Shown here: piece after piece, positions 4,941 to 6,743 of the stretch | Numbering within the stretch: position 1 is the first letter of the stretch | How the letters are laid out: the number at the start of each line of letters is the position of its first letter | DNA from: Escherichia phage UPEC01 | Length of the DNA: 64,000 nucleotides | Strand: one strand, 5' to 3' | Sequence record: MW233709 | The notes under the pieces: model-generated | The model's database searches: none | Seen by the model: only the letters and a program-made list of their open reading frames with translations | What the model was told of the DNA's origin: nothing | Position numbers and translations under genes: made by a program

Positions 4941-5288
4941 ATGACCAAACAACATGGATTAAATATGGAATTACCAATTAAAGCAGTAGGTGAATATATT
5001 ATTTTGGTTTCTGAGCCAAAGCAAGCTGGTGATGAAGAAACTACGGCATCAGGTATCGTTATCGGAAAACTCCATCAGGGTGAAATCCCAGAGATGTGTG
5101 AAGTATTTTCGATTGGTCCGGATGTTCCTGAAGGTTTCTGTGAAGTGGGTGATTTGACTCCTCTTCCGGTTGGCAAGATTGCAAACGTTCCACATCCTCT
5201 GGTTGCTCTGGGACTTAAGCAGGCTAAAGAAGTTAAGCAGAAATTTGTGACCTGTCATTATAAAGCTGTTCCTTGTCTTTATAAGTAA
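4941..5288 (+). CDS. 31: GroES-like co-chaperonin for capsid protein folding (gp31)
   Basis: Protein ...[23 protein letters not shown]...[15 protein letters not shown] is near-collinear with T4 gp31 as recalled; true start may be ATG at 4965. Confidence 0.8.
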
Positions 5289-5297
5289 AATTAGCGT

Positions 5298-5305
5298 TAT
5301 AAATA
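5298..5305 (+). promoter_or_regulatory. late promoter TATAAATA upstream of rIII
   Basis: Exact TATAAATA just after gene 31 stop. Confidence 0.5.
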
Positions 5306-5445
5306 ATAATATGGATTGGCTGCCGGACCCGTTAGTTAACCGGAGAATCCTAAACGGTGGACTACAACTGAGAGACTTGCCGAAAGGAAGTGAAATTCAG
5401 AAGAACGTGTCCACCAAATATTCACCTCGTATTGAGGCTTCTAAA

Positions 5446-5700
5446 ATGTCTTTAAATAAACAATTACAACACGCTCTTGAACTGCAACGCACTGCATGGA
5501 ATAACGGTCACGAAAACTACGGCGCATCTATTGATGTTGAAGCCGAAGCACTGGAAATTCTGCAGTATTTCAAACATCTTAACCCGATTCAAACCGACCT
5601 TCGCGCAGTGCTCGAAGCAAAAGATGAACTGAAATTTGCTAAGCCGCTGGCATCTGCTGCGCGTAAAGCTGTTCGTCATTTTGTCGTAACCCTGAAGTAA
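5446..5700 (+). CDS. rIII: rIII lysis inhibition accessory protein
   Basis: 84 aa from internal ATG (MSLNKQLQHALELQRTAWNNGHENYG...), matching recalled T4 rIII; SD GAGG upstream; listed ORF start at 5311 judged an in-frame extension. Confidence 0.75.
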   Translation: MSLNKQLQHALELQRTAWNNGHENYGASIDVEAEALEILQYFKHLNPIQTDLRAVLEAKDELKFAKPLASAARKAVRHFVVTLK

Positions 5701-6097
5701 GCTGTAGGTGATTCGCTACCTTAGTGCGGCTAGAAAATCGAGGAGCCGCCGAATTATCTGATTAATGATTTGCGAATCATTATAGTTTTAGACCCCGATA
5801 ATTTTGTGGTGTACCTCTTGAATGTTATTCTTATAGCGGCAAGTGCATGCTACCCCGAGGTGATGGCCAATCGGGAGTACGCCTCAAGGCCTATATATCC
5901 ATCAGTATATATCTTATCCTCGAGAAATCGAACCCGGAACCTTTAAGCTAACGGTGTGCAACAGATAAGAGCTATAAGGTATGATGACGAGGTTTATGGT
6001 TATCCTGTCGTTAAATATCCGAAACCTAATGTTCCCTTCGAGGGCTTGCGCAGGCAATGCCAATAAGTCCTGCATTCTATTTTAAAGAGAATTTAAT

Positions 6098-6260
6098 ATG
6101 GCTAAGAAAGAAGTTAAAGTTGTTGATGGCTCCTCCAAACGCGATGGTTACAAGCGTGCGTCCAACAAGCGAATCAATCAGGTAACTGATAAACTTCAGG
6201 CTCGTGCTCGTGCGGTATTGCGTGCCGATGCAGCTTGCTTTGGTAAGCCGAAAGCATAAG
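6098..6260 (+). CDS. hypothetical small basic protein
   Basis: 53-aa ORF (below track cutoff) with SD AAGAGA and followed by strong terminator 6265-6290. Confidence 0.4.
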
Positions 6261-6264
6261 TTCA

Positions 6265-6290
6265 GGGACTCTTCGGAGTCCCTTTTTTAT
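6265..6290 (+). terminator. intrinsic terminator
   Basis: GGGACTC-TTCG-GAGTCCC followed by TTTTTTATTTT. Confidence 0.7.
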
Positions 6291-6303
6291 TTTCCATAAA
6301 GGG

Positions 6304-6333
6304 GTTTACAACAGGGTTGGTCCAGTGCATAAT
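6304..6333 (+). promoter_or_regulatory. early promoter with conserved leader
   Basis: GTTTAC 6304-6309, 18-nt spacer, CATAAT 6328-6333; downstream 23 nt identical to copy at 30559. Confidence 0.55.
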
Positions 6334-6374
6334 GATTCCATACTGAGTTACACAATAAAACACTGGAGAATAAA

Positions 6375-6743
6375 ATGAAAATCAATCTTAACTCATACAT
6401 CAAAGGTAAAGACCACGACGGTTACAAAGCCATTGAAACTAAAGAAATGCAATGGCACTTGTATAAAGAACAATTTGAATTCGTTTCTTGCATGACTCCA
6501 GAAGGTCCTTCTGATGACTTCTCCTGGAAAATTATGGTAACAAACTTTTTTACTGGTGATACCTACGAACTGAAAACTTTGATTCTTGGTAAGATTCGTT
6601 GTAAGACCTATGAAGATGAAGAAACTGGTTATTCTGAAGATGTTACATGGTATCAAAATGGTCGCACCACTGCTGATGATTTGATTGAAAAAATGAAAGC
6701 TAAGGGTGAATTAAATTTAGATAATTGGATTAAAGTCGCATAA
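6375..6743 (+). CDS. hypothetical early protein (30.x-like cluster)
   Basis: 122-aa ORF with early promoter at 6304-6333 and SD GGAG; leader nearly identical to that of ORF 30606. Confidence 0.5.
   Translation: MKINLNSYIKGKDHDGYKAIETKEMQWHLYKEQFEFVSCMTPEGPSDDFSWKIMVTNFFTGDTYELKTLILGKIRCKTYEDEETGYSEDVTWYQNGRTTADDLIEKMKAKGELNLDNWIKVA

What the first reader, a model, noticed from the sequence alone, without database searches (positions are those of the whole stretch)
5701..6097. Roughly 400-bp ORF-free, hairpin-rich region downstream of rIII in an otherwise tightly packed genome
Between rIII and the next small gene there is no ORF of 60 aa or more on either strand, unusual for this genome. The region contains a perfect 8-bp hairpin with a UGCG loop (5763-5782), a 6-bp stem GCGGCT/AGCCGC (5726-5750), a tandem TATATATC repeat (5892-5913) and a weak GTGTAC-type promoter-like element near 5809-5837. 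I looked for a tRNA cloverleaf around the GGTTCGA-like stretch at 5929-5942 and could not build one. It could encode a small RNA, a replication or recombination site, or be a decayed gene.
Basis: seen in the sequence. Interest (0 to 1): 0.45.

Follow-up and report, generated by a model that had tools for sequence, protein, structure and literature searches.

The report
New structured RNA in T4-like phages
The gene-free gap after the rIII gene holds a roughly 150-base RNA that folds into a conserved four-armed shape locked by a loop-to-loop contact. It occurs in hundreds of T4-like phages (not in T4 itself), matches no catalogued RNA family, and its job is unknown.

Summary
5701-6097 has no ORF of 60 aa or more and lies in the longest such stretch of the 64-kb window.

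The core (5837-5971) is 85-100% identical in about 400 T4-like phages of Escherichia, Klebsiella, Enterobacter, Citrobacter, Serratia, Yersinia, Erwinia and Edwardsiella. It always lies between rIII and 30.9 on the sense strand. The neighbouring rIII gene is only 63-77% identical.

Across 35 distinct sequences, 99.5% of base-pair cells pair. 25 of 46 pairs show compensatory changes (0 of 500 shuffles reach this). The fold is a gapless four-way junction with seven helices and a 6-bp L2-L3 kissing loop seen in four covarying versions.

Unpaired nucleotides are the most conserved. The internal 34-aa ORF is broken by stop codons in 12 of 23 homologues. Rfam 15, ARAGORN, E. coli genomes, plasmids, 185,579 reference genomes and the literature gave no match. 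T4 lacks exactly this segment, and some phages carry a 53-nt hairpin there instead.

Verdict: a real, uncatalogued, gain-and-loss structured RNA. Its function is inferred only.

The parts
5446..5700 (+). rIII coding sequence (84 aa, true start MSLNK...). It is the upstream neighbour in every phage that carries the RNA.
   Evidence: Translation; PHROG 1457, lysis inhibition accessory protein, E 5e-42. The T4 late-promoter motif TATAAATA lies at 5298-5305 upstream.
5707..5738 (+). Module M (GGTGATTCGCTACCTTAGTGCGGCTAGAAAAT). It overlaps the GCGGCT/AGCCGC stem (5726-5749). Conserved block of unknown role, not part of the core RNA.
   Evidence: Alignments. It directly abuts helix P1 in Klebsiella, Enterobacter CIP9 and Yersinia fHe-Yen9-01 phages, but lies 90 nt upstream of it here. 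It is also present in T4.
5763..5782 (+). 8-bp hairpin with a UGCG loop, followed by UAUAGUUUU. Possibly a weak terminator or 3' stabiliser of rIII. Not part of the core RNA.
   Evidence: Read. Identical in T4, which lacks the RNA. Not called by the terminator scan.
5829..5979 (+). The whole structured RNA element, from the 5' strand of P1 to the 3' strand of P1. This is the finding proper.
   Evidence: Covariance-model hit at 5825-5984, 187 bits, the only hit in the window. 99.5% of cells paired and 25 of 46 pairs with compensatory changes. T4 lacks about 5826-5980.
5830..5837 (+). P1 5' strand (CTTATAGC), pairing with 5971-5978 (GCTATAAG). This is the closing helix.
   Evidence: The sequence differs by lineage but stays paired: Moon TTTATAAGC/GCTTATAAA, Klebsiella TAAAC/GTTTA, EcL8g ACAC/GTGT, PS2 CATAC/GTATG.
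5838..5891 (+). Arm P1a-P2. P1a is GGC 5838-5840 with GCC 5889-5891. The internal loop is AAGTGCAT 5841-5848 opposite CTCAAG 5883-5888. P2 is 5849-5858 with 5871-5882 (bulges A5876 and C5880). Loop L2 is the 12 nt 5859-5870.
   Evidence: 8 of 10 P2 pairs and 1 of 3 P1a pairs show compensatory changes. The internal-loop bases GCAU are invariant.
5861..5866 (+). L2 half of the kissing loop (TGATGG), pairing with L3 at 5899-5904 (CCATCA).
   Evidence: Perfect 6-bp complementarity in all 23 sequences checked, in four versions: CGAUGG/CCAUCG, UGAUGG/CCAUCA, CUAUGG/CCAUAG, CAAUGA/UCAUUG. Pair counts are, helices 4 and 5.
5892..5911 (+). P3 hairpin (5892-5898 with 5905-5911, loop 5899-5904).
   Evidence: 3 of 7 pairs show compensatory changes (UAUAUAU to UAUACAU, UAUUCAU, UGCGUAU with matching partners).
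5912..5970 (+). P4 domain. P4 is 5912-5918 with 5964-5970. P5 is a hairpin, 5920-5923 with 5928-5931, GAAA loop. P6 is 5932-5936 with 5952-5957, with the nearly invariant 15-nt loop GAACCTTTAAGCTAA (5937-5951). The invariant joiner GCAACA is at 5958-5963.
   Evidence: Compensatory changes occur in P4 (3 pairs), P5 (2) and P6 (2, for example G-C to A-U in fHe-Yen9-01 and A-U to U-A in the Erwinia-type sequence). The block GCTAACGGTGTGCAACAGAT is nearly invariant.
5980..6026 (+). Module X: a bulged hairpin GAC(G)AGG/CCTGTC with a conserved loop, plus the tail CGTTAAATATCCGAAACC. A separate conserved module, not part of the core RNA.
   Evidence: Present in T4. It lies downstream of the RNA here and in Moon, EcL8g and fHe-Yen9-01, but upstream of it in Klebsiella, CIP9 and PS2 phages. 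Stem covariation was seen by eye only.
6030..6097 (+). Module U: the leader of gene 30.9. It holds the hairpin CCCTTCGAGGG (6034-6044), the stem GCAGG/CCTGC (6050-6054 with 6069-6073) and the ribosome-binding region.
   Evidence: Conserved with or without the RNA (T4 and VR20-like phages).
6098..6259 (+). Gene 30.9 (53 aa, basic, function unknown). It is the downstream neighbour in every RNA-bearing phage checked, and is followed by the only intrinsic terminator of the unit (6264-6283 plus a T run).
   Evidence: PHROG 1427, E 2e-25. Terminator found. tblastn map of rIII and 30.9 in 48 loci.

Best explanation
SHOWN. Window 5829-5979 (+) encodes a member of an uncatalogued family of structured non-coding RNA found in a subset of T4-like (Tevenvirinae) phages.

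The RNA lies inside the rIII-30.9 transcription unit. The late promoter is at 5298-5305, the only terminator is at 6264-6290, and no promoter or terminator was detected in between.

It folds into a four-way junction with no unpaired junction nucleotides:
- P1 is the closing helix.
- P1a-P2 is an arm with a conserved asymmetric internal loop.
- P3 is a hairpin.
- P4 opens into a three-way sub-junction carrying P5 and P6.
- A 6-bp Watson-Crick kissing interaction joins loops L2 and L3.

INFERRED. The kissing loop holds arms P2 and P3 side by side and fixes a compact tertiary fold. That fold presents the nearly invariant single-stranded blocks (AAGNGCAU, the 15-nt loop of P6, GCAACA) as a binding or active surface.

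Three observations point to a self-contained RNA module. The element sits in different orders relative to its neighbouring modules. It is cleanly present or absent between near-identical genomes. No conserved expression platform follows it. It therefore probably works by itself, binding a protein, a small ligand or another RNA, rather than as a dedicated switch for 30.9.

My best guess is an accessory RNA of the kind phages gain and lose in host-specific conflicts, such as a decoy or sponge for a host factor. That last step is a guess and is untested.
For: Conservation. The core 5837-5971 is 94-96% identical in Klebsiella and Enterobacter phages whose flanks cannot be aligned. 410 phage records match the 152-nt core, and 395 cover at least 80% of it. 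Core identity exceeds that of the adjacent rIII gene: 93.6 vs 74.2%, 92.2 vs 65.6%, 81.7 vs 67.6%, 78.2 vs 63.2%.

Structure. RNAalifold on a MAFFT alignment gives 43 pairs, 15 of them with compensatory changes. On 35 distinct sequences, 99.5% of cells pair, 25 of 46 pairs change on both sides, 0 of 500 shuffles reach this, and slid controls give 2-6 such pairs. The kissing loop is perfect in 23 of 23 sequences, in four versions.

Strand. G-U pairs (for example columns 93-100 in 32 of 35 sequences and 117-128 in 10 of 35) would be A-C mismatches on the other strand. The functional strand is therefore the transcribed one.

RNA-like constraint. Unpaired columns are more conserved than paired ones (37 of 55 invariant vs 35 of 86).

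Not coding.

Autonomy. 20 of 48 rIII loci from IMG/VR carry it, always downstream of rIII on the + strand. Three states occur at one site: empty, the RNA, or a 53-nt hairpin. Its order relative to modules X and M differs between genera.

No known family. Rfam at E up to 10, on the gap and on the core alone, and gathering-threshold scans of five divergent members, returned nothing.
Against: There is no expression data. That a discrete or stable RNA exists, and that it acts in trans, is pure inference.

The element is always found between rIII and 30.9. That fits a cis role at least as well as a trans role.

Sequence diversity is modest. There are about 8 clearly distinct lineages, and many sequences are over 90% identical, so several compensatory events are inherited rather than independent.

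The largest alignment was fitted to the covariance model, which favours the model's structure. However, the MAFFT alignment gives the same helices, and the kissing loop was found independently of the model.

P2 (about 15 bp including P1a) is much longer than P3 (7 bp). An intramolecular kiss therefore needs a sharp kink at the internal loop. The same complementarity could instead join two molecules.

No partner protein, ligand or defence system has been identified.
Confidence: 0.55

Rival explanations
1. Riboswitch-like cis regulator. The element is an aptamer in the 5' leader of gene 30.9. Ligand binding stabilises P1 and P4 and alters the folding of the downstream leader (modules X and U), setting translation or read-through of 30.9.
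For: The architecture is aptamer-like: a closing P1, a multi-helix junction, a kissing loop, and the highest conservation in unpaired bases. It always lies upstream of 30.9 in the same transcription unit, which ends at a terminator straight after 30.9. The pyrimidine-rich 5' strand of P4 (UCUUAUCC) could in principle pair with purine-rich ribosome-binding sites; this is my reading of the sequence, not a tool result.
Against: No conserved expression platform exists. What follows P1 is module U in Klebsiella phages but X plus U here, 110-120 nt from the start codon. T4 and VR20-like phages keep the same 30.9 leader without the element. No Rfam riboswitch model matches, even at E up to 10. The terminator scan finds nothing between the element and 30.9.
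Confidence: 0.18
2. Self-cleaving ribozyme or other RNA-processing element that separates the rIII and 30.9 messages.
For: The size (about 150 nt), the many invariant unpaired nucleotides and the gapless four-way junction with conserved loops on two arms recall the natural hairpin ribozyme (from my knowledge of that family). The element sits between two cistrons of one transcript.
Against: No ribozyme model in Rfam 15 matches, including hairpin, twister, twister-sister, hatchet, pistol, hammerhead and HDV-like. The stretch resembling the hairpin-ribozyme loop B sequence (GUAUAUAUC) is a covarying helix here (P3), not a conserved loop. No activity has been tested.
Confidence: 0.12
3. Cis-acting mRNA element without a specific partner. 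It would act as a 3' stabiliser of rIII mRNA against exonucleases, or as a put/EAR-like RNA that modifies RNA polymerase so it reads through the terminator after 30.9.
For: The element lies 3-130 nt after the rIII stop codon and upstream of a strong terminator. It is always in the sense orientation.
Against: Simple hairpins suffice for 3' protection. That role would not explain invariant single-stranded blocks or a covarying kissing loop. T4 manages without the element. It shows no resemblance to put or EAR RNAs in Rfam.
Confidence: 0.08
4. A recently spread insertion with no function of its own. Its conservation would reflect recent horizontal transfer between co-infecting phages rather than selection.
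For: The presence/absence pattern is clean at one site in near-identical flanks, and an alternative 53-nt insert occupies the same site. The core is 100% identical between phages whose flanks are about 93% identical. Truncated copies exist in Shigella phage CT01 and in OLB35.
Against: Divergent members (65-82% identity) keep every helix through compensatory changes, and keep the kissing loop in four versions. That requires long-term selection on the fold. No mobility gene, terminal repeats or target duplication were seen at the junctions in the alignments.
Confidence: 0.05
5. A missed small protein gene (the 34-aa ORF 5847-5951, annotated 'hypothetical protein' in many GenBank records), a decayed gene remnant, or a DNA-level site such as an origin or recombination site.
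For: The ORF is intact in the window and in some relatives, and several records annotate it.
Against: Stop codons interrupt the frame in 12 of 23 homologues, and fHe-Yen9-01 has no ATG. No Shine-Dalgarno sequence precedes the ATG. There are no Pfam or PHROG hits. The substitutions seen are paired compensatory changes and do not preserve the reading frame. The strand-specific G-U pairs argue against a duplex-DNA site.
Confidence: 0.02

Closest known systems
Lysine riboswitch (L-box, Rfam RF00168)
   Same: A multi-helix junction closed by P1. A long P2 arm is interrupted by a conserved internal loop that must bend for its terminal loop to form a 6-bp Watson-Crick kissing helix with L3. A further arm ends in a GNRA-type loop. 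The size is about 150-180 nt. These L-box features are from my knowledge of the published structures.
   Different: The L-box has a five-way junction with conserved junction nucleotides that form the lysine pocket. Here the junction is four-way with no unpaired nucleotides, and conservation sits in the P1a/P2 internal loop and the P6 loop. There is no sequence similarity (no Rfam hit at E up to 10). It is not next to lysine genes and no expression platform is evident.
Natural (four-way junction) hairpin ribozyme (Rfam RF00173)
   Same: A perfect four-way junction in which two adjacent arms carry conserved internal elements and lie side by side. The size is comparable.
   Different: The loop A and loop B consensus is absent. 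The arms here are tied by a terminal loop-loop helix rather than by docking of internal loops. No covariance-model match exists. Cleavage has not been tested.
Purine riboswitch and similar junction RNAs organised by L2-L3 loop-loop contacts
   Same: Parallel P2 and P3 arms are held by a loop-loop interaction that pre-organises a junction-proximal pocket. P1 is the closing helix.
   Different: Those RNAs are about 70-nt three-way junctions with non-canonical loop contacts and a ligand pocket in the junction. This element is twice as large, has a Watson-Crick kissing helix and has an extra three-way sub-domain.
Phage T4 stable RNAs rnaC and rnaD (species 1 and 2 RNAs)
   Same: Non-coding RNAs of about 120-140 nt encoded by T-even phages, of unknown function.
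   Different: They lie in the tRNA cluster, and rnaC has a tRNA-like 3' end. Model R1 finds nothing in that T4 region with filters off (best hit 6.5 bits, E 0.8). T4 lacks the present element altogether.
phi29 pRNA
   Same: A phage RNA whose function depends on covarying complementary loops.
   Different: In pRNA the loops pair between molecules to build a ring on the packaging motor. Here intra- and intermolecular pairing cannot be told apart by sequence. There is no sequence or context similarity, and T4-like packaging needs no RNA.

Membership tests
Any Rfam 15 family (4227 covariance models) | Covariance-model score at or near the family's gathering threshold | tested here: not met
   No hit inside 5701-6097 at E up to 10. 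With the core alone and the laxest filters, the only hit is 7.9 bits to a snoRNA at the 3' edge. Five divergent homologous loci gave 0 hits at the gathering threshold.
tRNA / tmRNA / tRNA-like gene | Cloverleaf with acceptor, D, anticodon and T arms | tested here: not met
   ARAGORN finds 0 genes in the whole window. The GGTTCGA-like string is on the non-functional strand and spans two different helices.
Lysine riboswitch | Five-way junction with a conserved lysine-binding core, and a match to RF00168 | tested here: not met
   The junction is four-way and gapless. There is no Rfam match.
Lysine riboswitch | Location in the leader of lysine biosynthesis or transport genes, with a terminator or RBS-sequestering platform | tested here: not met
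   The neighbours are rIII and 30.9. No terminator-like site lies between the element and 30.9.
Lysine riboswitch | 6-bp L2-L3 kissing loop | tested here: met
   This is a resemblance in architecture only.
Hairpin ribozyme | Loop A (N*GUC / AGAA) and loop B consensus, a match to RF00173, and self-cleavage | tested here: not met
   There is no Rfam match. The loop-B-like string is a covarying helix. Cleavage itself cannot be tested with these tools.
Self-cleaving ribozyme (any class, including new ones) | Site-specific self-scission in vitro | not testable with these tools
   Needs a transcription and cleavage assay.
Riboswitch (any class, including new ones) | Specific ligand binding coupled to a change in expression of the downstream gene | not testable with these tools
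   Only indirect evidence is available: no conserved expression platform, and the 30.9 leader is the same in phages without the element.
Intrinsic terminator | GC-rich hairpin followed by a U tract | tested here: not met
   The only terminator-like site in 5200-6450 is at 6264-6283, after 30.9. The GenBank 'terminator' annotation on P2 in phage SA21RB has no U tract.
Sigma-70, T4 late or T4 early promoter inside the gap | Consensus hexamers with correct spacing, or TATAAATA | tested here: not met
   There are no promoter-like sites in 5701-6097. The nearest TATAAATA is at 5298-5305. MotA-dependent middle promoters are not covered by the scan, so module M remains untested.
Small protein-coding gene | Reading frame conserved among homologues, a ribosome-binding site, and protein-family matches | tested here: not met
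   Stop codons occur in 12 of 23 homologues. There are no Pfam or PHROG matches for the 34-, 58- and 53-aa ORFs.
T4 rnaC-type stable RNA | Homology to rnaC/rnaD and location in the tRNA cluster | tested here: not met
   R1 with filters off on the T4 tRNA-rnaC region gives a best hit of 6.5 bits, E 0.8.
Conserved structured non-coding RNA (generic) | Base pairs maintained by compensatory substitutions beyond what shuffled and slid controls give | tested here: met
   (0 of 500 shuffles; slid controls give 2-6 pairs against 25).

The most novel reading that the evidence does not exclude
The element is the founding member of a new functional RNA class specific to T-even-like phages. It would be one of three things: a new ligand-sensing aptamer, a new self-cleaving ribozyme, or the first RNA decoy or sponge that T4-like phages swap in and out to counter a host factor or defence system.
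Probability: 0.3. Interest if true: 0.85.

Novelty: new variant of a known kind. Interest (0 to 1): 0.66.

Why it matters
T4-like phages are the most intensively studied phages. Yet this RNA is unannotated or mis-annotated in roughly 400 sequenced genomes, as 'hypothetical protein', 'terminator' or even 'glycogen branching enzyme'. The likely reason is that T4 itself lacks it.

An RNA with a gapless four-way junction, a covarying kissing loop and invariant single-stranded blocks has the hallmarks of RNAs that bind ligands or proteins or that catalyse reactions. Its gain-and-loss behaviour between near-identical phages resembles that of accessory host-conflict genes.

Natural isogenic pairs already exist at one site: the RNA, an empty site, and a 53-nt hairpin. 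The function is therefore directly testable by swapping alleles. At the least, the family is a ready candidate for Rfam and a correction to phage annotation.

Tried and rejected
- Rfam at E up to 10, on the gap and on the core alone, and at the gathering threshold on five divergent loci: nothing.
- ARAGORN: no tRNA or tmRNA.
- Host origin or mimicry: no match in 5,426 complete E. coli genomes. Only two chance 30-nt matches in plasmids. No exact match of the 20-nt signature GCTAAYGGTGNGCAACAGAT in one genome for each of 185,579 species. The 14 metagenome hits confirmed by the model are all close relatives.
- Homology to T4 rnaC/rnaD: none.
- Remote homologues in rIII loci that lack the RNA: none, using the second model R2 with filters off.
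- Resemblance recalled from memory to the SAM-I riboswitch (UCUUAUC...CCCGGAACC...GGUG.GCAA...AGAUAAGAG): rejected. The covariation supports P6 (ACCCG/CGGUGU), not an S-box-like P3, and the SAM model does not hit.
- Shared 8-10-mers with E. coli RNase P RNA, recalled from memory: not collinear, about what chance gives, and no RNase P model hit. Rejected.
- Hammerhead CUGAUGA on the minus strand: the string is CUGAUGG or CCGAUGG and belongs to the kissing loop. Rejected.
- Earlier pseudoknot idea AGGYG/CGCCU, and an 11-nt tetraloop receptor: not supported by the variants. Both were replaced by the L2-L3 kissing loop.
- K-turn or loop E in the internal loop: the consensus is not met.
- Pairing between the single-stranded blocks (J1a/2, L6, J6/4): no covariation found.
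- Literature: seven full-text searches and checks of two structured-RNA discovery papers found no description of the element. The only related item is that RIII binds ribosomal protein S1 and blocks RegB activation (PMC9409239). Its relevance is unknown.
- An alignment of the 30.9 leaders with RNAalifold was spoilt by imprecise start coordinates and was not used.

Full report
Context. The window is a T4-like phage. The 397-nt interval is 100% identical to Escherichia virus TH41 and 96-98% identical to vB_EcoM_RZ, SP18 and VR26. On the + strand the gene order is cd, 31.2- and 31.1-like genes, 31 (4941-5288), rIII (5446-5700), the gap, 30.9 (6098-6259) and 30.8. A T4 late-promoter motif lies at 5298-5305. 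The only intrinsic terminator nearby follows 30.9 at 6264-6283. The gap is therefore intercistronic RNA of an rIII-30.9 transcript.

The observation. No ORF of 60 aa or more overlaps 5701-6097. 5701-6374 is the longest such stretch of the window, 674 nt against 179 nt for the next. There is no tRNA, no Rfam match and no promoter-like site in the gap. Folding energy of the single sequence is unremarkable (z -1.5 and -2.1).

What comparison shows. BLAST of the gap finds 995 phage records, but only 178 cover most of it. Ranked hits reveal a mosaic. T4, T2 and many Tequatroviruses match the two ends and lack the middle. Klebsiella, Enterobacter and Raoultella phages match only the middle (query 137-271, window 5837-5971), at 91-96% identity. 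In those phages the segment also lies just downstream of rIII, while the flanks are unalignable.

A search with the 152-nt core alone finds 410 records, all T4-like. They infect Klebsiella, Escherichia, Shigella, Enterobacter, Yersinia, Salmonella, Citrobacter, Serratia, Raoultella and Erwinia. An Edwardsiella phage was found. The core is far better conserved than the adjacent rIII gene: 93.6 vs 74.2%, 92.2 vs 65.6%, 81.7 vs 67.6% nucleotide identity. RIII proteins are 65-87% identical.

Structure. I collected distinct copies from several sources: GenBank, IMG/VR by signature and by rIII and metagenomes.
- RNAalifold on a MAFFT alignment of 20 sequences predicts 43 pairs, 15 of them with compensatory changes.
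- A covariance model built from that alignment finds exactly one copy in the window, at 5825-5984 with 187 bits. It also recovers divergent members: Yersinia fHe-Yen9-01 (112 bits), Escherichia EcS1 (118 bits) and an Erwinia IT22-type sequence (159 bits).
- Reading the model-based alignment, I noticed that loop L3 is always the exact complement of six bases in loop L2. There are four versions: CCAUCG/CGAUGG, CCAUCA/UGAUGG (window 5899-5904 with 5861-5866), CCAUAG/CUAUGG and UCAUUG/CAAUGA. A script confirmed this in 23 of 23 sequences.
- With this kissing loop added, 35 distinct sequences give 99.5% paired cells and 25 of 46 pairs with changes on both sides. No shuffle out of 500 reaches this. 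Partners slid by 1-3 columns give 2-6 such pairs and 25-42% pairing.
- Every helix, P1, P1a, P2, P3, P4, P5, P6 and the kissing helix, has at least one compensatory pair.
- G-U pairs fix the sense strand as the functional one.
- Unpaired columns are more conserved than paired ones.

The fold is a four-way junction with no unpaired junction nucleotides. P1a-P2 carries an asymmetric internal loop (AAGNGCAU opposite CUCAAG). P4 opens into a three-way sub-junction with a GAAA-type hairpin (P5) and P6, whose 15-nt loop and the following GCAACA are almost invariant.

Not a gene, not a DNA site. The 34-aa ORF that several GenBank records annotate is interrupted by stop codons in 12 of 23 homologues and lacks an ATG in one. 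It has no ribosome-binding site and no family match.

A gain-and-loss cassette. Three states occur at the same point, after CTTGAATGT (5817-5825) and before ATGATGACG (5981-5989):
- empty (T4 and others);
- the 150-nt RNA;
- a 46-53-nt hairpin (VR20-like phages and several Tequatroviruses).

The flanks are 90-99% identical across these states. Of 48 rIII loci in IMG/VR, 20 carry the RNA. A second, broader model with filters off finds no degenerate copy in the others.

The neighbouring modules are shuffled. Hairpin module X (5980-6026) is downstream of the RNA here and in Moon, EcL8g and fHe-Yen9-01, but upstream of it in Klebsiella, CIP9 and PS2 phages. Module M (5707-5738) abuts P1 in some lineages and is 90 nt away here. 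The 30.9 leader (6030-6097) is the same with or without the RNA. Truncated copies exist.

How it most likely works. Shown: a strongly selected, strand-specific RNA tertiary architecture embedded in the rIII-30.9 transcript.

Inferred: the kissing loop locks P2 against P3, which needs a kink at the internal loop because P2 is about twice as long as P3. The invariant single-stranded blocks then form a binding or catalytic surface.

No expression platform is conserved. The position relative to neighbours varies. Closely related phages do without the element. I therefore favour a self-contained module that binds a partner, possibly an accessory decoy-type RNA (confidence 0.55 for the package; the existence of the structured RNA itself about 0.95).

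The rivals are:
- a riboswitch for 30.9 (0.18);
- a self-cleaving or processing element (0.12);
- a generic stabiliser or antitermination RNA (0.08);
- a functionless recent insertion (0.05);
- a coding or DNA-level feature (0.02).

None of these can be settled without experiments. The loop complementarity could also act between molecules.

Comparison with known systems. The closest architecture I know is the lysine riboswitch, with its bent P2 and 6-bp L2-L3 kiss. After it come the four-way-junction hairpin ribozyme and the purine-riboswitch type of loop-loop-organised junction. The defining features of each family are not met, and no covariance model matches. It is unrelated to T4 rnaC/rnaD.

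Nothing similar occurs in E. coli genomes, plasmids or the reference genomes of 185,579 species. Seven literature searches found no description. One paper shows that RIII binds ribosomal protein S1 and blocks RegB activation (PMC9409239). That gives the neighbouring gene a link to RNA biology, of unknown relevance.

Verdict. The finding is real and more interesting than first scored. It is an uncatalogued structured RNA family with unusually clean covariation, widespread in T4-like phages but missing from T4. It behaves as an exchangeable cassette. The function is unknown. The family is new, while the general kind (a junction RNA organised by a kissing loop) is familiar.

Noticed in passing
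window 5980-6026: Module X is a bulged hairpin, GAC(G)AGG/CCTGTC, with a conserved loop (UUNUNGGUUAU) and the tail CGUUAAAUAUCCGAAACC. The stem seems to covary (EcS1: GUC(G)UAG/CUAGAC). It is present in T4 and swaps sides relative to the RNA between genera. It begins with a conserved AUGAUG, but the ORF that follows varies from 3 to 34 codons.
   Followed up: partly
window 5707-5738: Module M (GGTGATTCGCTACCTTAGTGCGGCTAGAAAAT) is conserved across genera. In Klebsiella phages it reads TTTGCTAC...TAGAAAAT, which resembles a MotA box plus a -10 element of a T4 middle promoter. A start there would truncate helix P1, so its role is unclear.
   Followed up: partly
L030 1883-1935 (IMG/VR UViG_2706795408; also L033, L039, L041); the equivalent site in the window is 5826: A 46-53-nt alternative insert (ATTTTGTACTATCACGCGTCAGAAAAAGGTTATCTGTCTAAGTCGTGGTTGGT) sits exactly where the 150-nt RNA sits in the window. 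It folds into a hairpin of about -9 kcal/mol. It could be a second small cassette or a deletion remnant.
   Followed up: partly
window 5763-5782: The 8-bp AU-rich hairpin with a UGCG loop, followed by UAUAGUUUU, is identical in T4. It may be a weak terminator or a 3' stabiliser for rIII. The consensus scan does not call it.
   Followed up: no
window 5289-5445: About 140 nt of non-coding leader lie between the late promoter (TATAAATA, 5298-5305) and the true rIII start (5446). The mechanical ORF list extends rIII to 5311 (129 aa), which is probably an artefact.
   Followed up: no
GenBank records under the RNA (e.g. MZ170040, ON720975, OL870316, NC_054935; OL960580; PP889492): The RNA is mis-annotated in public records. 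Labels include '1,4-alpha-glucan branching enzyme GH-13', 'rho-independent terminator' (placed on P2) and one to three 'hypothetical proteins'.
   Followed up: partly
Shigella phage CT01 OK018184.1 128924-129000; Escherichia phage OLB35 MH992122.1 131612-131661: These are truncated copies of the RNA. CT01 keeps only the 3' half, from L3 onward, and OLB35 keeps a 50-nt remnant. The element can evidently decay.
   Followed up: no
window 6098-6259: Gene 30.9 encodes a 53-aa, very basic protein (PHROG 1427, function unknown). It is the invariable downstream partner of the RNA and sits alone before a strong terminator. Whether it binds RNA is unknown.
   Followed up: no
window 5859-5866: In the window's version, L2 and the end of P2 read GAGGUGAU, an 8-nt match to the anti-Shine-Dalgarno end of 16S rRNA. 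Klebsiella-type copies read GAGGCGAU, so this is probably incidental.
   Followed up: no
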